Notes under the pieces: model-generated
The model's input: the letters and a program-made list of their open reading frames with translations, nothing else
Database searches by the model: none
Told to the model about the DNA's origin: nothing
Made by a program: the position numbers and the translations under genes
Shown here: positions 17,880-43,818 of the stretch, one piece after another
How positions within the stretch are numbered: the stretch's first letter is position 1
Layout: each line of letters opens with the position of its first letter
Sequence record: PZ379076.1
Source of the DNA: a phage
Length of the DNA stretch: 44,111 bases
Reading direction: 5' to 3' (one strand)

Positions 17880-18239
17880 TTGCTCCAGTTCGCCCGTTGG
17901 AACTTCATAACCCGCCACAAACGGCGGGAATTTGACAGTATCGCCGATGGGCATAAAGCCGCGCTAATTGCTATGGGGGTTATGCAAGACGCGCCGGACG
18001 CAACGCAGGCCACTGGGCCGGAATGCCCCCCTGAACTACTAACCACATTTGAGAAGTACAGGGAAATTAAATTCACCCGCCGAGTGGACGACGACGGCAT
18101 CAAGATGTACCCGCGCGAGCAATTACGATGGTCAGATTTAGTGGCGTACAGCACCGTTTCAGGCCAGAATATAGGGATGTTCGAATCTGACATCATCATG
18201 AGCTTAGACGCTATTTTCGAGGGTAGAAACGATGGCTGA
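17880..18239 (+). CDS. possible -1 frameshift extension of the tail assembly chaperone (T-like)
   Basis: -1 frame open from 17844, overlapping the last 10 codons of 17458-17874 which end ...CAG GAA AAG TAG; track ORF opens on TTG. Confidence 0.3.
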   Translation: MLQFARWNFITRHKRREFDSIADGHKAALIAMGVMQDAPDATQATGPECPPELLTTFEKYREIKFTRRVDDDGIKMYPREQLRWSDLVAYSTVSGQNIGMFESDIIMSLDAIFEGRNDG

Positions 18240-19647
18240 TGTAGCTAGTTTAGTCGTAAAAGTATCAGAGCAAGGCGCGAAAGCCACATCAGACCGTCTT
18301 GATAATCTTTCAAAGTCCGCAAAAGTAGCGGGGGCCGCCGTAGCAGGCCTCGCTTCTATCGTAGCGGCTACCGCGTATAAAGCCGCCCAAGAACTAGTTG
18401 ACTCACAGCGGCAACTGGACAAGATGTCCGCCAGTTTGAAGACCTTAACCGGAAGTACCCAAGGTGCTAAACAGGCGCTAAGTATCCTGCAAGATTTTGC
18501 ACGCGACACCCCATACGGACTGGAGCAGGCGGTGGAAGGCTTCCGTAAGCTGGTGGCCCTTGGCCTTACCCCATCCGAGGAGGCGTTGCGGTCCTACGGC
18601 AATACCGCATCGGCTATGGGTAAGGACCTTAATCAGATGATTGAGGCGGTAGCCGACGCCAGTACGTTTGAGTTCGAACGCCTCAAAGAATTCGGCATCA
18701 AAGCCAAGCAGAACAAAACCGACGTAGAGTTTACGTTCCAGGGAACGACAACCGTAGTTAAGAAAAGCGCTGCCGATATTGAGCAGTATTTACTTAACAT
18801 TGGTAACGTAAATTTTGCGGGGGCTATGGCTGACCAGGCCAACACCCTTAACGGCGCTATCGCGAGTGCCAGTGACTCATGGTCGCAGCTAAAAATGACG
18901 CTTGCCACCAGTCTTGATGTTGGCGCACTTGCTGAACCTATCAGGTATATCGATGACTTGATTCAGGAATTAAACGCGTCTGTTGCTTCCGGTGAATTAG
19001 CCGCTGAAATGCAGATGTGGGGGAACATCGCGTCGGAAGTAGGAAGCGCTATCGAGATGTCATTCGACGCTGCGTTTGGCTTTGTTGGCGATGCCATCAA
19101 CGGGCTTAATGAACTGTGGGATTTCAGCAGCAAGAGTATTACGGATAGCGGAGAACAAACGGCTACTACCATCGCTGAATCCGCCGCCGATGCGCTTGAC
19201 TTCATCGCGGAAGAGTTCACCGCGATGGAGAGATTCTTTGAAGATATGGTTAAAGGCGCGCAGGACGCGGGCCGTCTTGTACGAGCCGCTTTTACCCCCG
19301 GGGAATCAGTAGACGTAGCTAAAAATATCAACTTCCAGCTTGGCCTGGCTTTGGATACCCAGCGCGATGTCGCCGACGTTACGCGTAAAAGTTTCCGCGA
19401 ACAGGTAGAAGCTCAACAGGATATTGTAGCGTTAAAACGCGCGGCGTATGACATCGATAAGGAGTCCGCAAAAGCTGAGGGGTTAAACAAATTTAAGGTA
19501 ACCGGAACTGGCGGCGGTTCTGACGATGACGGGTCAGCCGCAAAAGCCGCTAAGAAAGCGGCGGACGCGTTCGAGCGCCAGAAAAAGCGGCGGAAGACTT
19601 CTACTATCAGTCAATCCATCTTAATGATGACGTATTTCAGAAAATAG
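18232..19647 (+). CDS. tail tape measure protein, N-terminal ~470 codons (frame broken near 19580)
   Basis: Long Ala/Gln/Glu-rich helical ORF after chaperone genes; ends 20 codons after an A5 run. Confidence 0.7.
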   Translation: MADVASLVVKVSEQGAKATSDRLDNLSKSAKVAGAAVAGLASIVAATAYKAAQELVDSQRQLDKMSASLKTLTGSTQGAKQALSILQDFARDTPYGLEQAVEGFRKLVALGLTPSEEALRSYGNTASAMGKDLNQMIEAVADASTFEFERLKEFGIKAKQNKTDVEFTFQGTTTVVKKSAADIEQYLLNIGNVNFAGAMADQANTLNGAIASASDSWSQLKMTLATSLDVGALAEPIRYIDDLIQELNASVASGELAAEMQMWGNIASEVGSAIEMSFDAAFGFVGDAINGLNELWDFSSKSITDSGEQTATTIAESAADALDFIAEEFTAMERFFEDMVKGAQDAGRLVRAAFTPGESVDVAKNINFQLGLALDTQRDVADVTRKSFREQVEAQQDIVALKRAAYDIDKESAKAEGLNKFKVTGTGGGSDDDGSAAKAAKKAADAFERQKKRRKTSTISQSILMMTYFRK

Positions 19648-20570
19648 AAGCTAACCAGGAAGAGCAACTGTCTAAGTTGCAGGACTTCTATAGCAATAAG
19701 CTTCTTAGCGACCAACAGTACGAAAACGCCAAGACGCAGATTATGTTATCCGCGGAACAGGCCCGCCAGGAAGAACTGGATAAGAAAAGGAAGGAGGCCC
19801 AGGAGAATCGGCAGAAAGGCGAGGATTTCATGGCTCAGATTATGGGTCAGAACGCCACCGAGCTTGAGCTTCTGGATATTCAGGAACAGCAGAAACTGGC
19901 AGTAGCCGATAAGTACCGTGAACAGGGTCTTATTAGCGAGAAGCAGTATCAGGCCACGCTTAACGCCATCAACGAGCAGTACGCAACCAAGCGAGCCGAT
20001 GCAACGGCAACCGCTTTCGGCAACATGGCGTCCAATATTGGGTCCGCGTTAGGGGAGGCATCCGGGGCTTATAAGGCGTTCGCTATTGTACAGGCCACGA
20101 TAGCCACGTACACCGCAGCTATTGAGGCGTACAAGTCAACGGCTGCTATCCCTGTTGTTGGCCCGTTCCTGGCCCCTGTAGCCGCTGCCGCTGCCGTTGG
20201 GGCTGGTATGGCGCAGATTTCCGCTATCAGGTCCGCGCGTGAACAGGGCGGTCAGTTATCAGCCGGGCAGGCTTCTACCATCGCTGAACGCGGTAAACCA
20301 GAAGTTATCATGCCCGCTGGCGCGTCGCGTGTACGCACAGCACAGCAGATGAAAGAAATTATGGGGCAAAACGGGTCTTCTTCCGGCCCGTCTAATGTTA
20401 CCATCGTAAACAACACGAGTTCTCAAATCGGCAACGTATCCACTGAGCAAGATGATGAAGGCCGTTTGCGAATCATCATCGAGGAGCAGGTGGCTGCCTC
20501 TTTGCAGAACAGCAACAGCAAGATTAGCAAGGCCCGCAAAGCCACAAGAAATGCGCCGGGGTTTAAATAA
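19554..20570 (+). CDS. tail tape measure protein, C-terminal part in the -1 frame
   Basis: -1 frame opens at 19554 and continues with the same composition to 20570 (track ORF 19677-20570); one extra A in the run at 19582-19586 would fuse both parts. Confidence 0.6.
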   Translation, partial: ESGGRVRAPEKAAEDFYYQSIHLNDDVFQKIEANQEEQLSKLQDFYSNKLLSDQQYENAKTQIMLSAEQARQEELDKKRKEAQENRQKGEDFMAQIMGQNATELELLDIQEQQKLAVADKYREQGLISEKQYQATLNAINEQYATKRADATATAFGNMASNIGSALGEASGAYKAFAIVQATIATYTAAIEAYKSTAAIPVVGPFLAPVAAAAAVGAGMAQISAIRSAREQGGQLSAGQASTIAERGKPEVIMPAGASRVRTAQQMKEIMGQNGSSSGPSNVTIVNNTSSQIGNVSTEQDDEGRLRIIIEEQVAASLQNSNSKISKARKATRNAPGFK

Positions 20571-22492: not shown

Positions 22493-22854
22493 ATATTAAC
22501 GACTACACGGGAATACCTTACGACTTTCGCAAACGTAATTGCTGGCATCACGTGCGCATTGTCCGCGCGGATGCCGGGTTAGAAACCCCAGCGTTCGACG
22601 TTGCAAGTCCAACGGCGATTAACGAAGCGTTCGACGAAGGACATCGCAACACGAAGGGACTTACAAAAATTGATAAGCCTGAAAACTTCTGTGCGGTGCT
22701 TATGGGGTATCGCCGCGGCGGTCGTATCGTGTGGCACGCAGGAGTTTACTTCGACGGGATGGTGAGCCATTGCGAGCTTGCTTCCCGTCAGGTACGGCTT
22801 GACAGGCTGGCGGATCTCAGAGACACGTACACGGAGATTGAATTTTGGCGATAA
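22489..22854 (+). CDS. tail assembly protein (gpK position, possible Cys/His peptidase)
   Basis: 121 aa; conserved Cys-His (NCWHH) near the N-terminus and His-Cys (SHCE) near the C-terminus; ATGA overlap. Confidence 0.4.
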   Translation: MNINDYTGIPYDFRKRNCWHHVRIVRADAGLETPAFDVASPTAINEAFDEGHRNTKGLTKIDKPENFCAVLMGYRRGGRIVWHAGVYFDGMVSHCELASRQVRLDRLADLRDTYTEIEFWR

Positions 22855-24332
22855 TCCTGCACTACACGCGAAACGCTGATGGCGCTTTCAACCGTACAAA
22901 ACACGTCGGGATGCCGATGGAGTTTGTCGTTAACCGTATCCCGGACGGCGTTCCGGTACGCGTCTATCTTGGCGAGATTGGTGATGATACTGATGTTACA
23001 GACGACTTCGACGCGCTCAAAGACGAGGACGCCGTGTACCACATTATTGAGGGCGCTGGCGGCGGCATTGGCGACGCCATCGGGAGTGTATTCAGTTTCA
23101 TCCTTAAGCCAATCGCCAAATTGTTCGGGCTAAACACAGCGGCTAACGCTAATTATTCCGCTACCAACAATCAGGCTACGTCGCCTAACAACAGTCTCAC
23201 CGACCGCTCAAACAAGCCACGACCTTATGAGCGTTCCTATGATATCTGCGGGACAGTGCAGACCATCCCCAATGACCTGATGCAGACATATAAGGTGTTT
23301 AATGCCGCGGGTGCGCTTATTGAATATGCGTACTATGACGCCGGTCGAGGGTATCTGCATATTGAGGAAGACGGTGTAACGGAGGCGGATACCCGAATCA
23401 GCGAGATAACTGGCTCGTCGGTGACGGTGTATCCCCCTTATACTTCGCCAAATAATACCAGCACCCCACAATTGCATATCGGCGACCCTATAGACCAGAA
23501 ATTGTACGTTACATTTAAAAACGCCGATGTCGATGGCGCTGTTCTTCCCGCACCTAATGACATCGCTATAGACGTGCAGGACTACACTGTCCAGCGGCAG
23601 GGAACAACAGGTGTTGTAATAGGCGATGACGCTGGTTTCGATGAGTTTTTGGCTGTCGGGGACCTGGCATATTTCGATAACGTATATGCGGACACAACTC
23701 CTGGGTCTTTAGGTAATGAGGTTAACTTAGACGGGAGGTACACTGTTCTTTCGGTTAGTGAAACCACCATTATTGTGGACGTCAGTACAAATCAATCAGT
23801 ATGGAACCAGCTAGGGGCGTCTGTGTGGTTTATAGGTGAAGAGGGTAACCATCTTATAGGCCCGGCGGACACTTACGCGGCTTCTCTCTCTGAATGGGCG
23901 TACATCACCCGCGGTACTGTCGACCGTGTTGTAGCCAATGTCGCCGCCAGCAACGGCATGTACAAATACAACGGCGACTATAACCGCGCTTCAGTGACAG
24001 TCGAACTGCAATACCAGATGGTAGATGAATTGAAACAGCCTGTAGGTGACATATTTACCGTACGAGGAACCGTAACAGGCCGGAACACGGATTACACAGG
24101 GATTACTCTTTACGGAAGTTTACCAACTGCTTCCAGATTCCGCGCCCGTATGCGTCGTGTTTCGGACACCGATAAAGATTTTGAAGGTACTGTTAGCGAC
24201 GAGGTTACTTTCACTAATCTGTATGGGCAGTCGCTGGACACAACCCCCACTACGGCAACCGTACTACCGTACACTGCGCCCGTAAACAAACCCCACGTGC
24301 AGCCGAGGTGTCCGAACCGGAACTGCGCATGA
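22845..24332 (+). CDS. tail tip protein with gpI-like N-terminal region
   Basis: 495 aa (TTG start in track); glycine-rich hydrophobic segment GAGGGIGDAIGSVFSFILKPIAKLFG as in lambda I-type proteins. Confidence 0.5.
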   Translation: MAIILHYTRNADGAFNRTKHVGMPMEFVVNRIPDGVPVRVYLGEIGDDTDVTDDFDALKDEDAVYHIIEGAGGGIGDAIGSVFSFILKPIAKLFGLNTAANANYSATNNQATSPNNSLTDRSNKPRPYERSYDICGTVQTIPNDLMQTYKVFNAAGALIEYAYYDAGRGYLHIEEDGVTEADTRISEITGSSVTVYPPYTSPNNTSTPQLHIGDPIDQKLYVTFKNADVDGAVLPAPNDIAIDVQDYTVQRQGTTGVVIGDDAGFDEFLAVGDLAYFDNVYADTTPGSLGNEVNLDGRYTVLSVSETTIIVDVSTNQSVWNQLGASVWFIGEEGNHLIGPADTYAASLSEWAYITRGTVDRVVANVAASNGMYKYNGDYNRASVTVELQYQMVDELKQPVGDIFTVRGTVTGRNTDYTGITLYGSLPTASRFRARMRRVSDTDKDFEGTVSDEVTFTNLYGQSLDTTPTTATVLPYTAPVNKPHVQPRCPNRNCA

Positions 24333-25411
24333 TTGCAACCGAGATGTGCTACAAATACTTAGGTAACGGCGTATTCGATACGGTAATGACACCGAACACT
24401 CAGGCCGTGCAGTCGCTAATCAGGCTGGCGCGTGACCCTGTGGTGGGTAATCTGGAACTGACAACGGCAAATATGGACAAGTTACTTGCCGTGCAGGAAG
24501 AAATTGAGTCGTATTTTGACAGTGAATTAGCCGGGCAGTTCTGCTACACATTCGACGACTACGACACAACCATGCAAGACATCGTTCAGACCATCGCGGA
24601 AGCCGTGTTTTGTACGGCATACCGTAAAGGTGCTGATATTATGCTGCGATTCGACCGTCCTGTTGCGGGGCCTGAGATGGTTTTCACCCACCGCAGCAAA
24701 ACGACCGGTACGGAGAAATGGACGCGCACGTTCAACGATTCGACAACCTACGATAGCCTGTCGTTCTCGTACATTGACCCGGATACAAACGTACAGGAGA
24801 CGATTTATATCCCGGAAGAACTCGGCGCGAACACCGAGGAGTACGAATCGAAGGGTGTACGTAACTATCAGCAAGCGTACTGGCTGGCGTGGCGTCGCTA
24901 CCAGCGCAACACGTTAAGTAAAGTTGTCGTAGAGTTCGAAGCTACCGAAGAAGGCGCTCTCGCTACTCCCGGCGGCGTAATCAGTGTGGTTAAAGGCTCG
25001 CGTATCGCGCCGCAGGATGGTTATGTTGTTGCCGTCAATGGCCTTACGCTGACGCTGTCTCAGCCTGTTACGTTTACTCCTGGTGATGACCATTCCATCA
25101 TCCTCAAGAAGCGCGACGGCTCTGTGCAGAGTATTTCTGTTATCAAAGGAAGCCACGACCGCGAAGTGATTATGCTCTCCGCGCCGGAGGAGGCAATCTA
25201 CACGGGGAATAGCGCACTAAAAACTGAGTTTTCATTCGGCAACGAAGCAAGGCATAATGCTCAGAAGATAGTTGTTTCTTCAATCGACCCCGGCGACGAC
25301 CGCACGGTCAAGATTACTGGTTACAACTATGACGACGGATTCTATAAATACGACGGCGTCGCGCCATACGGCAGCAGCTTCTCCGACGGATTCAGCAATG
25401 GTTTTAATTAA
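24329..25411 (+). CDS. tail tip / host specificity region protein (hypothetical)
   Basis: ATG 24329 overlaps the upstream TGA (ATGA); track ORF 24308-25411 opens on GTG. Confidence 0.5.
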   Translation: MIATEMCYKYLGNGVFDTVMTPNTQAVQSLIRLARDPVVGNLELTTANMDKLLAVQEEIESYFDSELAGQFCYTFDDYDTTMQDIVQTIAEAVFCTAYRKGADIMLRFDRPVAGPEMVFTHRSKTTGTEKWTRTFNDSTTYDSLSFSYIDPDTNVQETIYIPEELGANTEEYESKGVRNYQQAYWLAWRRYQRNTLSKVVVEFEATEEGALATPGGVISVVKGSRIAPQDGYVVAVNGLTLTLSQPVTFTPGDDHSIILKKRDGSVQSISVIKGSHDREVIMLSAPEEAIYTGNSALKTEFSFGNEARHNAQKIVVSSIDPGDDRTVKITGYNYDDGFYKYDGVAPYGSSFSDGFSNGFN

Positions 25412-27575: not shown

Positions 27576-28087
27576 CTGGTAAATTTCCTCGCAAGATACG
27601 TTATTTCTTCTTCACAAAGTTCATCAAGGTCGTTAGATACAAATCCTCTGGTGAATGTTTTGCTGAACTTTAATCCAGCTTTATCATTGTCGCCAGCGCA
27701 CACCCAGTCATACGGCAAAAGTGACATTTGCTGCCGTAGGTCTGTTGATATATTTGACCCCAGTGCGCTTACAGCATTGAACCCGCAATTCATCAAGGCT
27801 ACGGCTTTGAATATGCTTTCGGTAACAAATACCACCCCGCTTTCCGGCAAATACTCAAGCCCCCATAAACACGGCCTTGTTGTTCTGGTAAAGTACCGCG
27901 CGTCTTTAGGGTTTTTACAGTTCTTTTCGGCATGTGGTTTGTAATGCTGGTATCCGCGAAGCCTACCGTCAAACCCCCACAGGTAAAACGTAGCTACTCC
28001 AGGGGCTAAGACTACCTGGAGACGGTCAGCGTCAAACCCACGCGCCAGCAGATGAGCTTTAAGTAGAAACTCTTCGAAATCCATCAT
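27572..28087 (-). CDS. Toprim-domain protein (primase-like)
   Basis: 171 aa; ...VFVTESIFKAVALMNCGF...WVCAGDNDKAG gives the conserved Glu and DxD of the Toprim fold. Confidence 0.55.
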   Translation of the reverse strand: MMDFEEFLLKAHLLARGFDADRLQVVLAPGVATFYLWGFDGRLRGYQHYKPHAEKNCKNPKDARYFTRTTRPCLWGLEYLPESGVVFVTESIFKAVALMNCGFNAVSALGSNISTDLRQQMSLLPYDWVCAGDNDKAGLKFSKTFTRGFVSNDLDELCEEEITYLARKFTR

Positions 28088-29430: not shown

Positions 29431-29507
29431 CAGATATTACAGCGCGGGTGTTGCAGCATGAACGAAGTCATGAGCTTCTGGTACTCTCGACGGATAAATT
29501 TAGACAT
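29337..29507 (-). pseudogene. N-terminal fragment of the same helicase in the other frame
   Basis: ATG 29507, translation MSKFIRREYQKLMTSFMLQHPRCNIWCGMG... carries the Q-motif (REYQ) and the start of the P-loop; frames swap at the run 29417-29421. Confidence 0.55.
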
Positions 29508-29509
29508 GT

Positions 29510-29704
29510 TCAATCCTTAACGTAGAGTACCAGCTCTTTACGCCCGAACGCGGTAACGTTGCCTGTTACATCTTCGATAACCAGTTTACCGTTTGACTCG
29601 ACGAACACAGTATCAACGGCAACAGGCTGGCGGGTCTTAACGTTGAAAATCATGTCGCCAGGTACGATGTCACGTGCTGGTTTGCGGTCGTATTCGTGTT
29701 TCAT
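29510..29704 (-). CDS. hypothetical protein
   Basis: 64-aa ORF in track, first gene behind the promoter at 29738-29766. Confidence 0.55.
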   Translation of the reverse strand: MKHEYDRKPARDIVPGDMIFNVKTRQPVAVDTVFVESNGKLVIEDVTGNVTAFGRKELVLYVKD

Positions 29705-30382: not shown

Positions 30383-32552
30383 AGCGTTTTAACTCCTGAC
30401 CTTCCGCTACAAGAGGGAACCCCTCCGCCCATTCTGGTAATTCGCACATCAATCGCTCAAGCTCTGCGACATTGTATTCCGGCGTATCTGGAGTTTCGCA
30501 GATAATCTCATCGTGGACATGAAGTACAATTGGATAACCGTTTGCTTCTACGTTCAGCAGCGCGTTGGCCAGCAAATCACGGCACAACGCCTGAGTGCAG
30601 TTTTCCACCAGTTTACCAGAGTAGGTGTACTGGAAGCCCCACTGCCGGGTTAACTGGTTTTCGCCCTGGTACTTGATGCGCACGTTAGTAGACACCTTTC
30701 CATCTTCGTCTGTCTCTTTCGACACACTTAATCCGACGCCCGGGTATGACATAACGCGACCCGACGGCAACGTCATGCGCAACCACCAGCCCGCGACTTT
30801 GTCGCCGTTGTTGTCTGTCTCTATGTTACGCGAAAACTTAACGCCTCGCGGTCCTGCGGTGAACTCTTTACCTGGATTGCGGATAGCGGCCATAGCTGCG
30901 TCTTCAATATCTCGCCAGAAAGCTACTGTTTCAGGGTGTGACTCTCGCCACATACGCTTGATAGCGTCACAGGTACGCCACACTTTCTTATCAAGAATAT
31001 ACGATGGTCGGTCATCCTTCTCCCCGGGTCGCGGCGGTCGCTTGGCTTCCTGAATACGTGCCCATTCATAGCCGCGTGCAGTAGCCGCCCAGATGTGGTC
31101 CGGGAAAGTACCGTCCATTGTTTTTGACATATCAACAAGGTCAAGTCCGAGGTTCTTAGCAAACTGAACGAAAGCGCCAACACCACCAGCGTAGCCGAGG
31201 CCAAGCTCGCAGGCTTTACCAATCTGGCGCAAGTCTTTGCGTTCCTTCTTAATGTAATCCGGCTCCATGCCGAACATCTTACCCGCGGTTACACAGTAAA
31301 TGTCCAGCCCGGCGCGGAACGTATCTAGCGCGGTTTCTTCGCCTGCCAGCCACGCAAGCCCCCGACCTTCAACGTTAGAGTAATCGGCAACGACAAACTT
31401 ATGCCCTGCTTCCGGTATGATGCAGCTACGAACGGTCGATGCCGTTAGCTTGGCCACATCGAAACGGCGATGGGCGCGACCCTTAAGTAACGCCGAAATG
31501 CCTTTATCCAGCTCATCATCGTGATAGTAACCGCGTGCCAGGTTCTGCGGCTGGAAGCCTTTACCGGCCCATCGCAGAGTACGCTTTGCCCCACCGTACT
31601 GGATACAACCGCGGCGTCGGTCGTCCGACGAGCGGCCTAACAGCAGCGGGTTATATTTCGTGGACGCTGTTGACGCGGCCCCGAGGCGCATTTCGATAAT
31701 CATCCGGGCGTCGTCCGGTAAATCATCATCTGCCAACAGGTCGTTAAGCGTCGACTTCTGTGCATTGTGTATGTGGTGCGCGGGCGCAAGTTCACGCAGA
31801 ATCGGAAGGAAGTCTTTACCGGTAAGCGAGCCGCCGTATTTACGTTGAGCTTCTTCCTGTAACTGTGCCTTGTGCTTCTCTACGGCTTCAATCGCGGCTT
31901 CCGCCAGTGCGACGTCAACCTTAAATCCGCGGTCGTTGATTAACTGGTCAAGTTCCAGTACACGGTCTTCGAACTCGGAGTTACCCCAACGCGGCAGCTT
32001 ATGGAAGACTTCACGCATCGCAGTGATGTCGCTCACGGCGTACCTGATGAACATCGCCCACTCGTCAGGGTGAGTTTCTGCGGTGTAGCGGCGGATTTTG
32101 TAGTTCTTCGGCGTCGGTTTAGAGAAACGCTTAATCAGAGCCTTGCCGCGTTTATCTTTCGCGTTGTCTGCAGACACGCCCAGCACTTCGCACAGCGCAT
32201 CAAGAGAACCCGGCAGCGCGTGACGGAACGCCCAAATCATAGTATCAATGGTGTTACTTACCGGAATATCAAAGTCCCAGCAGTGTTTCATGATTAGGCG
32301 ATCGAAAAGTCCACCGTTGTGCCACACCATCTTGATGCGGCTGTTGGGCTTAACAAGGCGGCGCAGTGCGCGGTGTAAATCCCCCGGCATGTCGCTGCCG
32401 TCGGTGCAATCCCATACCCGCACAGGTTCGTCGTCAAAAGCATATGTACAGATAAGCACTTCGGTTGACGGGTGTTCGGCGTAAGCGTAAGAACCGACTT
32501 TCTTCAAATCGGCTTCTGAGAATGTTTCAAAGTCTAAGAACAGGTAACTCAT
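30372..32552 (-). CDS. DNA polymerase, family A, with 3'-5' exonuclease domain
   Basis: 726 aa; Exo I FLDFETFS; polymerase motif A DYSNVEGR, motif B-like K...LGLGYAGG, motif C VHDE. Confidence 0.9.
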   Translation of the reverse strand: MSYLFLDFETFSEADLKKVGSYAYAEHPSTEVLICTYAFDDEPVRVWDCTDGSDMPGDLHRALRRLVKPNSRIKMVWHNGGLFDRLIMKHCWDFDIPVSNTIDTMIWAFRHALPGSLDALCEVLGVSADNAKDKRGKALIKRFSKPTPKNYKIRRYTAETHPDEWAMFIRYAVSDITAMREVFHKLPRWGNSEFEDRVLELDQLINDRGFKVDVALAEAAIEAVEKHKAQLQEEAQRKYGGSLTGKDFLPILRELAPAHHIHNAQKSTLNDLLADDDLPDDARMIIEMRLGAASTASTKYNPLLLGRSSDDRRRGCIQYGGAKRTLRWAGKGFQPQNLARGYYHDDELDKGISALLKGRAHRRFDVAKLTASTVRSCIIPEAGHKFVVADYSNVEGRGLAWLAGEETALDTFRAGLDIYCVTAGKMFGMEPDYIKKERKDLRQIGKACELGLGYAGGVGAFVQFAKNLGLDLVDMSKTMDGTFPDHIWAATARGYEWARIQEAKRPPRPGEKDDRPSYILDKKVWRTCDAIKRMWRESHPETVAFWRDIEDAAMAAIRNPGKEFTAGPRGVKFSRNIETDNNGDKVAGWWLRMTLPSGRVMSYPGVGLSVSKETDEDGKVSTNVRIKYQGENQLTRQWGFQYTYSGKLVENCTQALCRDLLANALLNVEANGYPIVLHVHDEIICETPDTPEYNVAELERLMCELPEWAEGFPLVAEGQELKRYVK

Positions 32553-32572
32553 TATTTTTGACCCCTAGTAAA

Positions 32573-32592
32573 AAGGCCCAATGAAGGGCCTT
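32573..32592 (-). terminator. rho-independent terminator between the SSB-like gene and the polymerase gene
   Basis: Stem aaggccc (32573-32579) / gggcctt (32586-32592); on the minus strand the stem is followed by TTTTAC; polymerase ATG only ~20 nt further. Confidence 0.55.
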
Positions 32593-32611
32593 AGTTAAAT
32601 TGATTCAGATA

Positions 32612-33238
32612 TTAGCGGCGGCGACGTTCGCGGCGCGGTGCTTCATCTTCTTCGTCGTCTTCCAGGTCATTGACGCTCGCAGCGACTTTAGAACCGCCGA
32701 ACGCTTTGCCTTCGCCAACGTATTTAATCGCCAGCAGGTTAACGCCGAGGACTTTGTATTTCTGGCTGAACCAGATTTCAACGCTTACGTTAGCTAAGCA
32801 TCCGCTGTAAACCTGTTCACCTTCAATCTGTTCACCGTCTACATTGAAGTCCTGTTCTACCTGAGTCTCACCTTTTTTAGAGGTTACAATCAGCGGCTGC
32901 TTCTGTGCCTTCGCTTTGAAGTAGAAGCCTTCCGGGAAGTCTTCAAACGGATTGTCACGCTCGGCAATGTCTTTAATCGCACATTTATCCATGTGCTTAC
33001 CTTCGCCGTAGTTGGACTTCATCCACTTCTCGGCGGCGGCTGCACCTAACGCTTCTTCAACTACAGCGTAAACGGTGTCGTAGAGCGCGTCGATTTGCGC
33101 GTGGTCGGACGGCAGGATAATAGTCGCGCTGTACTGACCTTTAGTGATTGAACCATCATCATTTTCACGGTCTTTTTCGCGTTCGAATACGTTAACCCAA
33201 GCAGTGTTTACTTTACGCAGATTTAATTTCAGTCCCAT
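32612..33238 (-). CDS. ssDNA-binding protein (DUF2815 / gp2.5-like, putative)
   Basis: 208 aa; acidic C-terminal tail DLEDDEEDE; sits between a DUF2800-like nuclease and a family A polymerase. Confidence 0.45.
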   Translation of the reverse strand: MGLKLNLRKVNTAWVNVFEREKDRENDDGSITKGQYSATIILPSDHAQIDALYDTVYAVVEEALGAAAAEKWMKSNYGEGKHMDKCAIKDIAERDNPFEDFPEGFYFKAKAQKQPLIVTSKKGETQVEQDFNVDGEQIEGEQVYSGCLANVSVEIWFSQKYKVLGVNLLAIKYVGEGKAFGGSKVAASVNDLEDDEEDEAPRRERRRR

Positions 33239-33293
33239 TTCTCGATTCCTCAGTTTTCAGTTTACTCCGGGAGCTGCCCGGCCAGTGATTAGA

Positions 33294-33322
33294 ACTATAA
33301 TAGCTAACTATTCAGGTGTCAA
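33294..33322 (-). promoter_or_regulatory. strong sigma70-type promoter, TTGACA-N17-TATAGT family
   Basis: Minus strand TTGACA (33322-33317), 17-nt spacer with AATAG-N4-CTATT, TATAGT (33299-33294). Confidence 0.65.
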
Positions 33323-33511
33323 ATAAAATTTCGCAATACGGACTATGTTCTCGAAATCATTCATATCAACGGGTTCGAATTCATCCTCCACATGGTTGTA
33401 TCGCACCATCGTGCCGTTCAGGAACGTAAACGATTCCGAATGGATATAACCGCCCCAGCGCCATATCATCACAAAATCTTTATCTGTGGGCATTTCATTT
33501 ACTTGAATCAT
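33308..33511 (-). CDS. hypothetical protein
   Basis: 67-aa ORF in track, coupled to the upstream nuclease gene. Confidence 0.5.
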   Translation of the reverse strand: MIQVNEMPTDKDFVMIWRWGGYIHSESFTFLNGTMVRYNHVEDEFEPVDMNDFENIVRIAKFYLTPE

Positions 33512-34749
33512 TATAAATCCTCCTCTGTTACCCTATTCCACTCAGGACGTTTGTCGTCTGCCGTTGCAACACATGGTGCGCCTGGCTTACGGGTAATGAA
33601 GTCTTTCAGTTCTTCTTCCGGTATGACTTTAACCGCTTCGGTTGGCGTCATGAGCACTTGCTTCATTAGCGCTATGCCATACTCGCCAGCCACTTTCTCT
33701 GCATCTTTCCACGCACGATTACCCGGGCGGCCTTCAACCAGCTTGTACCCCGGAACTTTCTTACCGGAATGCAACGCGGCAGCCATCGCTTTCTCAACCT
33801 TGTCGATGTGCTGGCGCAACAACGGCAACTTCTCATACTCAGCTACGAGTTGCTCCGGCGTAAGTTCCAGGGCAAAGTCGTCCTCCAGTTCTTCCGCCAG
33901 CACAGAGTTAACCGTCTTTGTACGCGCGGCGCACTGTTCAGAGAACCGGCACCACTGACAACCATCAACCGACGGCTTGAAGTCTGACGCTTTCAGGTTC
34001 TTCTTGCCACGGTGATAAGCATCAAGCGCTAACAGTGCGCGTTTCTGTGCGAACTTAGCGAACAGCTCCATACCTTCAACCGAGATGTCCCACTCCGACG
34101 CGCCGCCAGTGTACGGCTGGAAGATTACCAGACGAACAACTGTTATGTTATAACGTCTCTTGAGTCGGCGATAAACACCGAGAGCGTAAAGCATAAGCTG
34201 CTTGTTTTCTTTCGCTTCGACGCGATGCCGCCCGGTTTTCAGGTCGCCGATAATGAGCATGTGCTCGTCGGTGTTTGCCAGTTCCTGGACAGCAACGAGG
34301 TCAGCGGTTCCGAACGTCTCAACGCCTTCATACCCCGGATGCAATACCTCAGTAAGATTGACACGCATTTCCAGCTTGGCGTAAGTCGCTACGTCTATAA
34401 TCGCTTTGCAGTAGTCGGTGTACTTGCGCACCTGCTCAATCATGTCCGCCGTAATCAGTACCGCGCCTTTCATCGGGCTGATTAGCGCCTTAATCTGACC
34501 TTTGCCTTCATCCAGTACGTAAGCGCCGACTTCACGCTCCAACGGCAACGCAGTGCCGCGTATATAGGCGTTGAGATGGACCTCAGCTATGGTGTGCATG
34601 GCGGTTCCTAATACAGCGGCTTTACCCGACGTGTTAGGGGTATCTTTTTCACACGCCAGCGACGCAGCGCATGACAGCCACTTTTTAGCGCCTGACGGTG
34701 ACAGTAAGGCGTGTACATCATTATTGCCGCCTCGTTCTTTTAGAATCAT
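33511..34749 (-). CDS. PD-(D/E)xK nuclease (DUF2800 / Cas4-like, putative)
   Basis: 412 aa; ...TADLVAV...IIGDLKTGR...QLMLYA core plus Cys cluster (CQWCRF...C); GGAGGAGG SD. Confidence 0.6.
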   Translation of the reverse strand: MILKERGGNNDVHALLSPSGAKKWLSCAASLACEKDTPNTSGKAAVLGTAMHTIAEVHLNAYIRGTALPLEREVGAYVLDEGKGQIKALISPMKGAVLITADMIEQVRKYTDYCKAIIDVATYAKLEMRVNLTEVLHPGYEGVETFGTADLVAVQELANTDEHMLIIGDLKTGRHRVEAKENKQLMLYALGVYRRLKRRYNITVVRLVIFQPYTGGASEWDISVEGMELFAKFAQKRALLALDAYHRGKKNLKASDFKPSVDGCQWCRFSEQCAARTKTVNSVLAEELEDDFALELTPEQLVAEYEKLPLLRQHIDKVEKAMAAALHSGKKVPGYKLVEGRPGNRAWKDAEKVAGEYGIALMKQVLMTPTEAVKVIPEEELKDFITRKPGAPCVATADDKRPEWNRVTEEDL

Positions 34750-35006
34750 TATTTAGCCTCCTCCGGTAGTTCTGGTAAATACATCCAGTGTGTTATACCC
34801 ATCTCGATATACCGTTTCGTATATAACTGATTTCCGTTTTCATCCAGCCCAGCAGTAATGTCGTCGAAATAGTCCTGTATATGCACAAAATCAATTCCGC
34901 CTTCCGGGAACCCATTATCGTCACATTTACTTCCGTCTACTGAGCAAACTAAAACAGAATCATCTTTTTACTCTGGTAGTGCTTCGTTTACGCTAACCCA
35001 ATTCAT
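34749..35006 (-). pseudogene. DUF551-like gene interrupted by an in-frame TAA
   Basis: One frame reads MNWVSVNEALPE-TAA(34970-34968)-KDDSVLVCSVDG...GITHWMYLPELPEEAK; both halves match the intact paralog at 40745-40930. Confidence 0.5.
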
Positions 35007-35275
35007 ACCCTGTTATCCCACTGGTCAATTAAATGTCGTGTCTTATGGTCGCAGTGCATGGCCCACCCATACATCGACTCGAAGACATAAAAGTCAGGCT
35101 TGGCGAAAGTTGTGCGCTTAATCTGTGACACGTGACGGCCTATATCTTTAGGCCGTGGTACTTTTCCTAAGTACGCCATCTCTTCCATCTGGTGCGCACC
35201 GGACGGAGCACGCAATAGCCATAGCGCCTCTGTGTTATCCCGCCTGTCGACGGCTCGGTAGAGTTGGTAAATCAT
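35003..35275 (-). CDS. hypothetical protein
   Basis: 90-aa ORF in track; stop overlaps next start. Confidence 0.55.
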   Translation of the reverse strand: MIYQLYRAVDRRDNTEALWLLRAPSGAHQMEEMAYLGKVPRPKDIGRHVSQIKRTTFAKPDFYVFESMYGWAMHCDHKTRHLIDQWDNRV

Positions 35276-35318
35276 AATTCCGACCCTCAGTTAAAGCGGC
35301 CCGAAGGCCGCGAGATAG

Positions 35319-35819
35319 TTATTCTTCTTCGAAATACTTGTTCTTGATTGCTGTCAGGCGTTCCAGGTACTCAACCAGGTCTTCGTCTTTAATCGCGGCA
35401 ATCTTCATCTTCTTACCTGTGAACTCTTCCAGCAGTTCATCAGAATCATCGCACGCGGCATCGATAGGACCTTCATTAATTGCATCGTCGATGGCCTGAA
35501 TCTGGTCACGCAGAGACTTGTAATCGACTTCTTCTTTCTCTTCTTCCGGTTCTGGCGCAGGTTCCTCTACTTTAGCTTTACGCGGCTTGCGTTTTGGCTT
35601 CTCTTCCTCCGCCGGTTTAGTGTCAACTACGTCTTCACCTTCAACCGGGATTTCTTTTGTTGCTTCTTCAGCGCACTCAGCTACCGCTTCTTTGGTGTAC
35701 GATACCGTCTCTACTTCCAGCGGCGTGGCAACCTGAACAACTTGTTTCGCACTGTTCGCGGCAATCAGTTCGTGCGCAACTACGAAACGTTCCAGTAATA
35801 CTAAGAATTTCTCTAACAT
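35319..35819 (-). CDS. highly acidic hypothetical protein
   Basis: 166 aa with very high Glu/Asp content, e.g. PEPEEEKEEVDYKS and DDSDELLEE; early-region position. Confidence 0.6.
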   Translation of the reverse strand: MLEKFLVLLERFVVAHELIAANSAKQVVQVATPLEVETVSYTKEAVAECAEEATKEIPVEGEDVVDTKPAEEEKPKRKPRKAKVEEPAPEPEEEKEEVDYKSLRDQIQAIDDAINEGPIDAACDDSDELLEEFTGKKMKIAAIKDEDLVEYLERLTAIKNKYFEEE

Positions 35820-35843
35820 TATTTATTCTCCTGTTTATTTGAG

Positions 35844-36071
35844 TTACTCGCCGTCGCCTTCTGTAAGGCTATCGTCTATTAATTCAAATTTACCGTTTGG
35901 GTGTTGAATAGCTTCTTGCCCGCAATGGTCGCAGACAACAAGTTTATCGAACCCATCAAACTCGTCCCCGACTACGCAAGAAAGTACAAATTTATGTTTT
36001 GTGCACACTTCCTGCGATTCTCCGAAAATTGCTAGAAAACCTTTAGCTATGGCTCCCGTTATTGTGTTCAT
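35844..36071 (-). CDS. small Cys/His zinc-ribbon-like protein
   Basis: 75 aa; VCTKHKF...VVCDHCGQE, same C-x-H ... C-x2-C-G pattern as repeats in the 41733-42491 protein; first gene behind the 36100 promoter. Confidence 0.55.
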   Translation of the reverse strand: MNTITGAIAKGFLAIFGESQEVCTKHKFVLSCVVGDEFDGFDKLVVCDHCGQEAIQHPNGKFELIDDSLTEGDGE

Positions 36072-36099
36072 ATCCGCCCCTCTCGTTTGGTATGGGCTA

Positions 36100-36128
36100 A
36101 CTATAATAGCGAACTATTCACATGTCAA
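36100..36128 (-). promoter_or_regulatory. strong sigma70-type promoter, TTGACA-N17-TATAGT family
   Basis: Minus strand TTGACA (36128-36123), 17-nt spacer with AATAG-N4-CTATT, TATAGT (36105-36100). Confidence 0.65.
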
Positions 36129-36192
36129 TGGGCTTTTCTAAAATAATTAATATGGTACTATTCACATATCAACTGACTAAGGAGTAATTGAC

Positions 36193-36408
36193 ATGCAACC
36201 ATCTGAACTAGGTATCCGTGTAGAACAACGCCGTAAAGAACTCGGCATCTCCCAGCGCCGTTTGGCGGCCCTGACCGGCGTTTCCCAGGGCGCGATTAAC
36301 CAACTGGCACTTGGAGTAACTCAGGACGTCCGCCCGGCAACGCTGTTCAAACTGGCGGAAGTTCTGGAAGTAGACGCCAAGTGGCTGGCGTTAGGTGAAG
36401 GGGCTTAA
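36193..36408 (+). CDS. HTH transcriptional regulator (XRE / Cro-CI-like)
   Basis: 71 aa; ISQRRLAALTGVSQGAINQL is a helix-turn-helix signature; AAGGAG SD; only plus-strand gene in the minus-strand region. Confidence 0.7.
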   Translation: MQPSELGIRVEQRRKELGISQRRLAALTGVSQGAINQLALGVTQDVRPATLFKLAEVLEVDAKWLALGEGA

Positions 36409-36423
36409 AGCCCCTTTCTTTTT
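36398..36423 (+). terminator. rho-independent terminator after the HTH gene
   Basis: Near-palindrome aaggggctt / aagcccctt around the stop codon, then TTCTTTTTAT. Confidence 0.6.
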
Positions 36424-36736
36424 ATAGCAACTTATCGAGTTCTTCCAAATTCTTAATAGTGTGTTGCACGTTCAGGTACTGAATCCAGGCGAGAAACCAC
36501 GCACTTACAGGAAAACTTATAACAATAGTTATCGATATAATTAATTTGAAAAGGCACTTTATAATCTCTGCCAGCGTCATGTCTAAAATGTCTTTAAACT
36601 CCGCAAAAATCCCCGCTGCATACACACAAAAAGTCCACCAGTTGTTGCTTACAGCGGAAACACATGTCAGGTATGACGGGCGGTATCCTGCCTTCACTGC
36701 TTTAAACGGGTTATCTATAAAATCGTAAATATTCAT
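36422..36736 (-). CDS. hypothetical membrane protein
   Basis: 104 aa with two or three hydrophobic helices; ATGA overlap with upstream gene. Confidence 0.55.
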   Translation of the reverse strand: MNIYDFIDNPFKAVKAGYRPSYLTCVSAVSNNWWTFCVYAAGIFAEFKDILDMTLAEIIKCLFKLIISITIVISFPVSAWFLAWIQYLNVQHTIKNLEELDKLL

Positions 36737-38985
36737 TCCAAATCCTCCTCGGTCACTGTCAGCATTTCATTCGGCTCGTATATTGTCTTCGGAATCTTGT
36801 TATCTGTTATCATGGTGTTCAGTCTGTAACGGCCTGGGATTATCTGATTGTTTTCGTCAGTACCCGGAACAAGATACCCAGCCTCAACCATTTTCTTAAT
36901 CTTCCCGCGTTCTATGGCTTCTTTGGAGTTAAACGCCTTTGCGTTGGGGTCAGACTGCGCGAGCTTATTCGCTGCGGATACCGTGATGCCCTCGTTGCCG
37001 TTGTAGGTCCCCTCCGCCAGTTCAAACGCCGCGAGTATCGTGGCCTCGGAACTGTTGACGGCGTTCTCTATGGTTTTACGTACATTTTGTTTACCTTCGT
37101 TAGTTAACCCTTCTTCCCTCTCTTTCTCCTCGTCGGTCTTGAATGGCTCGAAGCCCCACGGCATCAATACAAGCGCCTTGTGCGGCTCAGGCAGGTCGAG
37201 GTTTACTATTGTGCCGTATTCCTCTGTGCTACCGAGGAACTCAACCGCGCGGTACTCTTTCGGCGGCGGTGCTTCACGGAACTGTACAGACTCCAGTACC
37301 ATGCCAACCGTCTTCTGTTGCGGACCGTGCTTAAATTTAGAGTGGTATACGTTTATCTGACGGTCGGTAGCGCGTTCGATTGTCAGTTCCACGTCGACAC
37401 CCGCATACAATGCTCCACTGCCGCGGGCTTTCTTTCCGCCCTTCGGAGTATGGTGAACGACACCGACAGCGGCTTTAGTTGCATCGCGCACTTCTTTCAG
37501 GATGGCGATAACTTTACCCATACCGATTGCCGTTGATGAACTGTTCTCGTCGAACTTATCAATCGTCAGGGCCAGCGTCTGGTTAAGGGTGTCGAAGGCA
37601 ACCATGCCAATAGGTTCATCCCCTGCGGTTTCGCGCATCCTGCGGATTAGAGCTGGAATTTTTTTATCACCATGCGTAGCGAGTATTTCGCCCATATCGA
37701 TGACATGTACATAATCTTTACCTTCCTCGCCATATTTAGCCGCGAGTGCATCAATACGTGTTCGTGTAGCTGCACCACCCTCGCCGTCAATATAGAAATG
37801 GTGGCAACGTTGGGTGTCAGCCCCCGCAAACCGGTACCCGGCGGCGCTCAGGTGCATCATCCCCAGCGTATAGAATGATTTGTACGTGCCGGATTCCCCG
37901 ACAATATCCCAGATACAATCCGACGGCATGTACCCCTCAACGACGAAATCAGCCTTTACCGGTTCTGGTAACTCGTCCTCTTCTTCAAGGTCTTCCAGCG
38001 TGCAAGTTACAGGCTCCTCGTTCTCTGTGCGGTGCAGTTCTTCAATCTCTTCATCCGGTAAATCAGGCAGAGCCGCACGAATGCTGTTAATACTGATAGG
38101 TTGCTTGTCTACGTTAAGCTCGTCTGGCAGGCCGCACATACGCAGGGCCAAATGCTGTCGGCGGTTAAGCTCGGTGCAAGCGCCGTTGTTTGTATGCTGG
38201 CACACAAAGCGCACTTCTTTACCATCAAGCATGATGCTTGTGGAGCCTTTGCCTGTATGCAGATGTTCGTTAGGGCATGGGACTTCGTACCCGCGCCCGG
38301 AAGATAAAGCGTCAAGGCCAAGCTCGGCTTCGCAGAAATGCGCTATATCAGCATTAAGCCCATACTCATCGGCGGCAAGTGTCTTAACTTCACGTTTACT
38401 CAACCCCATCTCTTCGGCTTTCTTGATGTACCGCTCGGCACGGATAACACGCCCTTCTGTAACCGTTATCTTTGACTCTCTATGTGGCAGATAGATAAGG
38501 CGGTTGCCGTCTTCCGTGCAGTGGTCACGCAAGGCTTCATCTATTTCTAACTCTGCACAAATAGCCCGTTGGACCATCCACGCGTCGTTAGAGTTAAACG
38601 GCGTGCGAGCCGGAACCAGAACGCGGAAGGCGTAATCACCGTTTTTACACACATGCTGATGCGATGCCGTTGTATGCAGAATATTGAAGAACGGTGCGTT
38701 CTTGAATTTGCGGGTAAGGTCGCGGTACTGAGTACGGTTGAGATGGTCAAAATCGAACTTAACCACACTGTCTTCCAGGATAGCGTTTTTACGGCGACCC
38801 CCAACAGGCGCAATAGCTTTCTGCTTAATCTTGGCAGCGTCGTACTCTTCCTTAGACCACGACGGATCCACGGATAAACGCTTCGATGTATCGCAGACAT
38901 ACTCCACAAACTGCTCGAGCGGCATCTCACGCGCTACAGGGTTTTTATCGAATGTGTTGCGCAGCGTTGCAAAAACAATATTCAT
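36733..38985 (-). CDS. primase / replicative helicase (RecA-like ATPase domain)
   Basis: 750 aa; Walker A GESGTYKS in the C-terminal half, Cys/His-rich N-terminal half; largest ORF of the replication region. Confidence 0.55.
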   Translation of the reverse strand: MNIVFATLRNTFDKNPVAREMPLEQFVEYVCDTSKRLSVDPSWSKEEYDAAKIKQKAIAPVGGRRKNAILEDSVVKFDFDHLNRTQYRDLTRKFKNAPFFNILHTTASHQHVCKNGDYAFRVLVPARTPFNSNDAWMVQRAICAELEIDEALRDHCTEDGNRLIYLPHRESKITVTEGRVIRAERYIKKAEEMGLSKREVKTLAADEYGLNADIAHFCEAELGLDALSSGRGYEVPCPNEHLHTGKGSTSIMLDGKEVRFVCQHTNNGACTELNRRQHLALRMCGLPDELNVDKQPISINSIRAALPDLPDEEIEELHRTENEEPVTCTLEDLEEEDELPEPVKADFVVEGYMPSDCIWDIVGESGTYKSFYTLGMMHLSAAGYRFAGADTQRCHHFYIDGEGGAATRTRIDALAAKYGEEGKDYVHVIDMGEILATHGDKKIPALIRRMRETAGDEPIGMVAFDTLNQTLALTIDKFDENSSSTAIGMGKVIAILKEVRDATKAAVGVVHHTPKGGKKARGSGALYAGVDVELTIERATDRQINVYHSKFKHGPQQKTVGMVLESVQFREAPPPKEYRAVEFLGSTEEYGTIVNLDLPEPHKALVLMPWGFEPFKTDEEKEREEGLTNEGKQNVRKTIENAVNSSEATILAAFELAEGTYNGNEGITVSAANKLAQSDPNAKAFNSKEAIERGKIKKMVEAGYLVPGTDENNQIIPGRYRLNTMITDNKIPKTIYEPNEMLTVTEEDLE

Positions 38986-40590: not shown

Positions 40591-40748
40591 GAGAAGCATT
40601 CGAACGGTGGGCCATCGTCGAGGGTCTGCCGGTTAATAAGGGTTCGAAGAAAGAGTACCTGAACGTTAAGACGCGTCTCGCGTGGCGGGCGTGGAAAGCT
40701 GGTGCGAATGTAATGGCTGGCGCATTTGAGAAGAGAGGCGATTTATGA
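40587..40748 (+). CDS. hypothetical small protein (53 aa)
   Basis: ATGA overlaps on both sides; translation MREAFERWAIVEGLPVNKGSKKEYLNVKTRLAWRAWKAG... Confidence 0.4.
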   Translation: MREAFERWAIVEGLPVNKGSKKEYLNVKTRLAWRAWKAGANVMAGAFEKRGDL

Positions 40749-40930
40749 GCAAGTGGATTAAGTGTAGTGAGCGGATGCCGGAGCCTTATGAATACGTTCT
40801 TGTAACTGATTGTTTTGTTGGCTGTGAGGTTATGCGTGTTAATTCAGATGGCTACTGGGGGCCCGCAAAGAGTTTATATCACGGAGATATAACGCACTGG
40901 ATGCCGTTACCTGAGCCGCCGGAGGTGTGA
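40745..40930 (+). CDS. DUF551-like small protein
   Basis: 61 aa; MSKWIKCSERMPEP...VLV...THWMPLPEPPEV shows the W-x3-(K/N)-x3-(M/L)PE start and THWM-x-LPE-x-P end. Confidence 0.6.
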   Translation: MSKWIKCSERMPEPYEYVLVTDCFVGCEVMRVNSDGYWGPAKSLYHGDITHWMPLPEPPEV

Positions 40931-43553: not shown

Positions 43554-43818
43554 GTTATTCTGGTTTGGTGGTATGCTCGCAATCGGGAGCACATCGCTGT
43601 TTAACGTATACCACCCCAGCGTAGATGATGGCCTGTTCGGGCGTGTGCTTTATATTCTGACTGCTATTGTCTGCGCCGCCGGATGTATCCACCTGTTACA
43701 GGGCAGCATGTCACCTACGTTGCCTGAGACATTAATCACTTTAGTTGCGCTGCGCCAGATTCGTCAGGCGTGGCTGTCGTACGGAGGACATAAGCGTGTC
43801 TCGAAACATTTCAGATAA
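43546..43818 (+). CDS. second small membrane protein of the lysis cassette (holin/antiholin candidate)
   Basis: ATG 43546 inside track ORF 43465-43818; two hydrophobic helices; overlaps neighbours. Confidence 0.45.
   Translation: MNELFWFGGMLAIGSTSLFNVYHPSVDDGLFGRVLYILTAIVCAAGCIHLLQGSMSPTLPETLITLVALRQIRQAWLSYGGHKRVSKHFR

What the first reader, a model, noticed from the sequence alone, without database searches (positions are those of the whole stretch)
34749..35006. DUF551-like gene with an in-frame TAA after codon 12, next to an intact paralog elsewhere
One minus-strand frame reads the family start (MNWVSVNEALPE), then TAA at 34970-34968, then the rest of the family including the ...THWMYLPELPEE end. 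The intact paralog at 40745-40930 shows the same start and end motifs. This is a nonsense-interrupted gene: pseudogene, sequencing error, or stop-codon readthrough.
Basis: seen in the sequence. Interest (0 to 1): 0.55.

Follow-up and report, generated by a model that had tools for sequence, protein, structure and literature searches.

The report
One-base stop in phage DUF551 gene
A small phage gene of unknown function carries a premature stop caused by a single base change seen in no other copy; it is either a sequencing error or a very recent knockout, not a recoding signal, and is ordinary.

Summary
Minus-strand frame 35006..34749 encodes an 85-codon DUF551 protein with TAA at codon 13 (34970-34968). 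The paralog at 40745-40930 is real but lies on the plus strand and is only distantly related. The window is a complete, circularly permuted Kagunavirus-like (Guernseyvirinae) coliphage genome.

All 18 close homologues (GenBank phages, IMG/VR, ENA/JGI/Logan contigs) have TCA (Ser) at codon 13. Within the 258-nt gene the window differs from the allele shared by five independent assemblies only by this C>A change. Scans of three large collections found no other TAA copy. The N-terminal W..LPE motif upstream of the stop is nearly invariant, and dN/dS is 0.014-0.12, so the full-length gene is the functional unit.

Recoding is not supported: no tRNA genes, TAA ends 28 of 46 conserved genes including this one, and there is no unusual downstream RNA structure.

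The same window also has three private one-base homopolymer deletions that break the tape measure, a large tail protein and the SNF2 helicase. A viable phage should not carry these, so the record probably contains base-calling errors. I put sequencing error at about 0.5, a genuine recent ochre knockout of a dispensable gene at about 0.43, and functional readthrough at about 0.03. Interest is low.

The parts
34749..35006 (-). DUF551 gene slot: 85 codons plus stop, interrupted at codon 13
   Evidence: Translation. Pfam PF04448 at 36.2 bits. Relatives annotate an intact 258-nt CDS at the same position.
34968..34970 (-). Premature TAA (ochre) codon 13. The private change is at 34969: T on the plus strand where relatives have G, i.e. 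C>A on the coding strand, TCA(Ser)>TAA. It extends an A4 run to A5.
34971..35006 (-). The 12 codons upstream of the stop (MNWVSVNEALPE) carry the conserved W..LPE motif of the family. The ATG overlaps the stop of the upstream ORF (ATGA).
   Evidence: W3, L10, P11, E12 invariant or nearly invariant.
34749..34886 (-). Only sizeable in-frame restart ORF after the stop (GTG at codon 41, 45 aa). It has no well-placed SD and would lack the N-terminal half of the domain.
35003..35275 (-). Upstream 90-aa ORF of unknown function, translationally coupled to the DUF551 gene. It is identical in many independent assemblies.
33511..34749 (-). Downstream DUF2800 / PD-(D/E)XK (Cas4-like) exonuclease gene. It has its own strong SD (GGAGGAGG, 7-nt spacer), so its translation need not depend on the DUF551 gene.
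36100..36128 (-). Near-consensus sigma-70-like promoter (TTGACA-17-TATAGT, 11 of 12 matches) at the head of the minus-strand early/replication operon that contains the gene.
   Evidence: consensus match only.
40745..40930 (+). Intact, distantly related DUF551 paralog (61 aa).

Best explanation
The TAA is a single-base miscall in this sequence record. The phage's real gene most likely reads TCA (Ser) at codon 13 and encodes the normal 85-aa DUF551 protein. The change TCAAAAG>TAAAAAG extends an A-run. The same record has three (possibly four) private one-base homopolymer contractions, and three of them would inactivate large conserved genes (tape measure, tail protein, SNF2 helicase) that are presumed essential. 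That marks the record as error-bearing. Shown here: the change is one base, it is private to this record, the rest of the gene is identical to an intact allele, and the record has frameshifts that should be lethal. Inferred: the same error process produced this substitution.
For: (1) Codon 13 is TCA in all 18 close homologues checked: 7 GenBank phages, 3 IMG/VR contigs, 7 ENA/JGI/Logan contigs and 1 metagenome contig. (2) The TAA allele was found in none of IMG/VR, JGI metagenome contigs or GTDB genomes. (3) Inside the 258 nt, the window differs only at 34969 from the allele shared by 22664BS2 and L013, L014, L018 and L019. (4) There are three private 1-nt deletions: tape measure near 19583, the 831-aa tail protein near 24243 (C6>C5), and the SNF2 helicase Walker-A segment near 29416 (G6>G5). 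All 4, 11 and 7 alignable relatives respectively carry the extra base, and all 10 loci fetched have these genes intact. T8>T7 at 261 is a fourth candidate. (5) The gene is under strong purifying selection (dN/dS 0.014-0.12), so a natural null allele is not expected to be common.
Against: The demonstrable errors are deletions, while this is a substitution. The other five private substitutions in the 6.3-kb block are not next to homopolymers. Private missense changes are just as common in relatives, so the substitution spectrum does not single out the window as error-rich. The gene is dispensable: it is absent from this slot in L012 and in most Kagunavirus records, so a real knockout would be tolerated. 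No reads are available, so the error is not shown directly.
Confidence: 0.5

Rival explanations
1. It is a genuine, very recent ochre (TCA>TAA) null mutation in a dispensable accessory early gene. Translation stops after 12 residues and no functional DUF551 protein is made from this copy. The phage tolerates the loss, possibly helped by the second DUF551 gene at 40745-40930. The downstream exonuclease is still made from its own ribosome-binding site.
For: The gene is absent from the same slot in L012 and in most related Kagunavirus genomes, where matches cover only 72% of the query and skip the gene. The window has about one private substitution per kb and 5.4% of substitutions in this gene give a stop, so one real nonsense hit per genome is plausible. 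C>A (G>T) transversions are common spontaneous mutations (established knowledge). The exonuclease has GGAGGAGG 7 nt upstream of its ATG. A distant paralog is intact.
Against: None of 18 close homologues, and no contig in three large collections, shares the allele. The family is under strong purifying selection where present. The record demonstrably contains other gene-breaking lesions that cannot all be real in a viable phage.
Confidence: 0.43
2. It is a functional stop-codon readthrough or recoding site. The TAA would be decoded at useful frequency, by a suppressor tRNA or a leaky context, to give the full 85-aa protein at a regulated low level.
For: The frame is perfectly preserved after the stop. 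The base after the stop is A, which by published E. coli context studies recalled from memory (not checked here) is not the strongest termination context.
Against: The stop is not conserved in any homologue. The window has no tRNA gene. TAA is the normal terminator of 28 of 46 conserved genes, including this one. The 100 nt downstream fold no better than shuffles (z = -0.67) and are identical to relatives that have Ser there. UAA is read by both release factors and is the least leaky stop in E. coli (established knowledge).
Confidence: 0.03
3. The real gene is shorter and starts downstream of the stop (for example GTG at 34886, 45 aa), and the upstream 12 codons are not part of it.
For: An in-frame GTG exists at codon 41.
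Against: The Pfam profile match begins at residue 3. W3, L10, P11 and E12 are invariant or nearly invariant across distant phages. All relatives annotate the 258-nt CDS. The GTG has no well-placed Shine-Dalgarno sequence. The ATGA and TAATG overlaps frame the full-length gene.
Confidence: 0.01

Closest known systems
DUF551 (Pfam PF04448 / InterPro IPR007539) small phage and prophage proteins, e.g. E. coli CPS-53 YfdS, Ea22 variant V2 C-terminal domain, LSPA1_42, IME207 gp52, MyoSmar gp019
   Same: It has the same domain over its full length, with the same N-terminal W..LPE and C-terminal ITHWMxLPELP motifs. It sits in an early/replication gene cluster and is about 60-90 aa long. The literature gives no biochemical function. 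YfdS loss is linked to H2O2 sensitivity, and the domain behaves as a portable module (PMC10834534, PMC4776307).
   Different: In this record the reading frame is cut by TAA at codon 13. No other member examined has that.
Ordinary nonsense (ochre) null alleles or sequencing-error 'pseudogenes' in phage genome records
   Same: A single base change gives a premature stop, the frame is otherwise intact, and the allele is private to one record.
   Different: Nothing distinguishes it. Its only particular feature is that it occurs alongside three frameshifts in presumed-essential genes of the same record.
Programmed stop-codon readthrough or stop-codon reassignment in phages (e.g. Qbeta A1 UGA readthrough; TAG/TGA-recoded gut phages)
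   Same: There is an in-frame stop with an open frame continuing behind it.
   Different: Known cases use UGA or UAG. In those cases the stop is conserved among relatives or occurs in many genes, and recoded phages often carry suppressor tRNAs (established knowledge). Here the stop is UAA, unique to one record and one gene, no tRNA is present, and UAA is the main terminator.

Membership tests
DUF551 (PF04448) | Profile HMM score above the Pfam gathering threshold (22 bits) over most of the profile | tested here: met
   36.2 bits, residues 3-82 against profile positions 2-68 of 68, with X at codon 13. The paralog scores 58.4 bits.
DUF551 (PF04448) | Conserved N-terminal W..(L/M)PE and C-terminal (I)THWMxLPxxP motifs | tested here: met
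   Alignment A2: W3, L10, P11, E12, T72, H73, W74, M75 and P78 are invariant or nearly invariant.
DUF551 (PF04448) | Uninterrupted open reading frame encoding the domain | tested here: not met
   TAA at codon 13 in the window. The frame is intact in all 18 close homologues.
Programmed readthrough / stop-codon reassignment | The in-frame stop is conserved in homologues, or recurs in many genes of the genome | tested here: not met
   0 of 18 close homologues and 0 of 5 distant ones have a stop there. No other well-conserved gene of the window has an in-frame stop.
Programmed readthrough / stop-codon reassignment | A decoding agent (suppressor tRNA), or evidence that the codon is not used as a terminator | tested here: not met
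   ARAGORN finds no tRNA. TAA terminates 28 of 46 conserved genes, including this one.
Programmed readthrough / stop-codon reassignment | A stimulatory RNA structure or context downstream of the stop | tested here: not met
   The 101 nt from the stop fold at -20.7 kcal/mol, z = -0.67 against shuffles. The sequence is identical to relatives without the stop.
Programmed readthrough / stop-codon reassignment | A full-length protein product is detected | not testable with these tools
   This needs mass spectrometry or tagging.
Decaying pseudogene | Multiple disabling lesions or relaxed constraint (raised dN/dS) in the interrupted copy | tested here: not met
   Apart from 34969, the 258 nt are identical to the intact allele of five independent assemblies. 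If the stop is real, it has essentially zero evolutionary age.
Sequencing / consensus error | Other demonstrable errors in the same record | tested here: met
   Three private 1-nt homopolymer deletions break the tape measure, the 831-aa tail protein and the SNF2 helicase. T8>T7 at 261 is a fourth candidate.
Sequencing / consensus error | Reads or independent resequencing disagree with the consensus base | not testable with these tools
   No reads are available, and the source record was not found in the contig index.

The most novel reading that the evidence does not exclude
The TAA is real and the phage still makes a low, useful amount of full-length DUF551 protein by UAA readthrough (context GAG-UAA-A). 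That would be natural dosage tuning of an early accessory protein. Alternatively, the allele is maintained because the second DUF551 gene makes this copy redundant.
Probability: 0.03. Interest if true: 0.35.

Novelty: already known. Interest (0 to 1): 0.07.

Why it matters
It matters little for biology. At most it is a natural knockout showing that this DUF551 copy is dispensable in a Kagunavirus, which the many relatives lacking the gene already imply. It matters for curation. The record carries a premature stop and three frameshifts in large conserved genes. These should be checked against reads before annotation, and automatic gene callers will mis-split four genes. It is also a useful negative control: an in-frame stop with a preserved frame is not evidence of recoding unless it is conserved.

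Tried and rejected
(1) TAA reassignment or a suppressor tRNA. Rejected: no tRNA, and TAA is the main terminator.

(2) A shorter gene starting after the stop. Rejected by the conserved N-terminal motif and the Pfam coverage.

(3) Restart close to the stop. The only nearby ATG is out of frame and gives MILF*.

(4) Frameshifting at the A-run. Rejected by inference: the sequences before and after the stop are in the same frame, so a shift would lose the domain.

(5) Tracing the source record through its unique truncated or variant proteins. Four exact look-ups found nothing.

(6) Looking for a near-identical whole-genome reference to get a complete error spectrum. No GenBank genome exceeds about 95.7% identity over 6000-30000.

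(7) Using the missense-to-synonymous ratio of private substitutions as an error signature. Relatives show the same pattern, so it does not discriminate.

(8) Homopolymer adjacency of private substitutions. Only the TAA change shows it.

(9) A solved structure for the domain. No PDB sequence match at E <= 1.

(10) Structure prediction was not run.

Full report
WHAT IS THERE. On the minus strand, 35006..34749 reads MNWVSVNEALPE-TAA-KDDSVLVCSVDGSKCDDNGFPEGGIDFVHIQDYFDDITAGLDENGNQLYTKRYIEMGITHWMYLPELPEEAK-TAA. The premature stop is at 34970-34968. With X at codon 13 the product matches Pfam DUF551 (PF04448) from residue 3 to 82, covering profile positions 2-68 of 68, at 36.2 bits against a cut-off of 22. 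The ATG overlaps the stop codon of an upstream 90-aa ORF (ATGA). The terminal TAA overlaps the ATG of the downstream DUF2800/PD-(D/E)XK exonuclease gene (TAATG). The interrupted frame therefore fills exactly one gene slot in a tightly packed minus-strand operon. That operon begins behind a near-consensus promoter at 36128>36100 (consensus match only). It lies on the plus strand and shares only the terminal motifs with the interrupted gene; BLASTP aligns 12 C-terminal residues.

WHAT GENOME THIS IS. The window is a Guernseyvirinae (Kagunavirus-like) siphophage. The best GenBank relative for this region is Escherichia phage vB_EcoS-22664BS2, which is 99.4% identical over 32001-36810 but only 89-97% identical elsewhere. 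No GenBank genome exceeds about 95.7% identity over 6000-30000. The lysin gene of 22664BS2 matches the window's last 315 and first 170 bases seamlessly. The window is therefore a complete circular assembly opened inside the lysin gene.

WHAT HOMOLOGUES HAVE AT CODON 13. Seven GenBank phages annotate an uninterrupted 258-nt CDS at the same position: 22664BS2, LSPA1, TU03, fTaEco01, fTaEco03, Schulenburg and Snoke. All have TCA (Ser) at codon 13. The same holds for three IMG/VR contigs, seven ENA/JGI/Logan contigs that encode the identical upstream neighbour, and one further metagenome contig. Four more distant homologues also have Ser there: Klebsiella phage IME207, Serratia phages MyoSmar and WR01, and a T4-like Yersinia phage. 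An Acinetobacter phage has Ile. A wobble-tolerant pattern fixed on TAA found nothing in the JGI metagenome contigs or the GTDB genomes, and the open-codon scan of IMG/VR found only TCA. Inside the 258 nt, the window differs at a single base from the allele shared by 22664BS2 and four independent metagenome assemblies. That base is 34969: T on the plus strand where the others have G, which is C>A on the coding strand.

IS THE FULL-LENGTH GENE THE FUNCTIONAL UNIT? Yes. W3, L10, P11 and E12, all upstream of the stop, are invariant or nearly invariant across the subfamily and the paralog. Pairwise dN/dS among relatives is 0.014-0.12. The first in-frame start after the stop is GTG at codon 41. It has no well-placed Shine-Dalgarno sequence, and its product would lack half the domain. 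The nearest ATG is out of frame and encodes MILF*.

IS IT RECODING OR READTHROUGH? Nothing supports it. The stop is not conserved. No tRNA gene is present. TAA terminates 28 of 46 conserved genes in the window, including this gene. No other well-conserved gene contains an in-frame stop. The RNA downstream of the stop folds no better than shuffled sequence (z = -0.67) and is identical to relatives that encode Ser. By established knowledge, UAA is recognised by both RF1 and RF2 and is the least leaky stop in E. coli.

ERROR OR REAL MUTATION? The key side observation is that the window carries three other private gene-breaking lesions.
- The tape measure gene is split into 18232..19647 and 19677..20570 by the loss of one base near 19583. 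Relatives read CCAGAAGAAAGC or CCAGAAAAAGGC; the window reads CCAGAAAAAGC.
- The 831-aa tail protein gene is split into 22845..24332 and 24308..25411 by C6>C5 near 24243.
- The SNF2 helicase loses frame by G6>G5 near 29416, inside the segment coding for the Walker A motif.
Every alignable relative has the extra base: 4 of 4, 11 of 11 and 7 of 7 respectively. All ten loci fetched have these genes intact. A fourth contraction, T8>T7, lies in an intergenic region at 261. A phage cannot plausibly carry all three frameshifts and be viable, so the record very probably contains homopolymer base-calling errors. The DUF551 change (TCAAAAG>TAAAAAG) also lengthens an A-run, which fits that error class, although it is a substitution rather than a deletion.

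Several points weigh against error.
- The gene is dispensable. It is missing from this slot in L012 and in most Kagunavirus records, whose matches skip it.
- The window has about one private substitution per kb. In the 6.3-kb block they are one nonsense, three missense, one synonymous and one intergenic.
- 5.4% of random substitutions in this gene give a stop.
- Relatives' private changes are equally missense-rich.
- The other private substitutions are not next to homopolymers.
I therefore cannot separate the two with the tools at hand. I put sequencing error at about 0.5 and a genuine zero-age ochre null allele at about 0.43.

CONSEQUENCE IF REAL. Translation would end after 12 residues and this DUF551 copy would be null. 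The downstream exonuclease has its own strong ribosome-binding site (GGAGGAGG, 7-nt spacer), so its translation should not depend on coupling (inference). The distant paralog may or may not compensate; this was not tested.

COMPARISON WITH WHAT IS KNOWN. DUF551 is a small portable domain of phages and prophages with no known biochemical function. It occurs in CPS-53 YfdS, whose loss is linked to H2O2 sensitivity, and in the C-terminal domain of Ea22 variant V2 (PMC10834534, PMC4776307). No PDB entry matches the protein by sequence. The gene is a member of that family by profile score and motifs, but its frame is broken in this record. It is not a member of any programmed-readthrough or recoding class, since each testable defining feature was tested and not met.

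VERDICT. The cause is ordinary: a private single-base change, either a base-calling error in a record that demonstrably has others, or a very recent knockout of a dispensable accessory gene. Interest is low. The practical value lies in flagging the record's four broken genes for read-level checking.

Noticed in passing
window 18232-20570 (lesion near 19583): The tape measure gene is split into two ORFs (471 aa + 297 aa) by a private 1-nt deletion (relatives CCAGAAGAAAGC, window CCAGAAAAAGC). The homologous 779-aa version is intact in all four relatives that align at this site.
   Followed up: yes
window 22845-25411 (lesion near 24243-24248): The 831-aa tail protein gene is split into 495-aa and 367-aa ORFs by a private C6>C5 contraction. 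All 11 relatives carry one more base.
   Followed up: yes
window 28084-29513 (lesion near 29416-29421): The SNF2-family helicase loses its N-terminal ~30 codons to another frame through a private G6>G5 contraction (minus strand), inside the Walker-A-coding segment (CGMGGGKTSS in relatives).
   Followed up: yes
window 261: An intergenic T8 run in 22664BS2 is T7 in the window. This may be a fourth homopolymer undercall or natural variation.
   Followed up: partly
window 43796-44111 joined to 1-170: The endolysin gene runs across the window ends without a gap (residues 1-105 at the 3' end, 107-162 at the 5' end). The window is therefore a complete circular or circularly permuted genome opened inside a gene.
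   Followed up: partly
window 34749-35006 slot; L012 3273-3425; hits H10-H40: The slot between the 90-aa ORF and the exonuclease is mosaic across Kagunavirus and Jerseyvirus genomes. Only 9 of 435 matching GenBank records carry this DUF551 gene. Others have a short spacer, a NinX-annotated gene or an HNH endonuclease there.
   Followed up: partly
window 36100-36172 and 36193-36408: A divergent control region: promoter-like sites on both strands lie between a 71-aa HTH (HTH_3/HTH_19/HTH_31) gene on the plus strand and the minus-strand early operon.
   Followed up: no
window 36733-38985 and 20570-21973: The 750-aa AAA_25 primase/helicase-like protein and the 467-aa tail protein are only about 60% and 68% identical to those of 22664BS2, although the flanks are 96-99% identical. 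These look like modular gene replacements.
   Followed up: no
L022 15782-18199; hit H68 (fEg-Eco06): Some relatives carry inteins or homing-endonuclease insertions: the helicase in L022 has Hom_end_hint and LAGLIDADG domains, and fEg-Eco06 is annotated with an intein in its minor head protein. HNH genes are also scattered in relatives. None was seen at those sites in the window.
   Followed up: no
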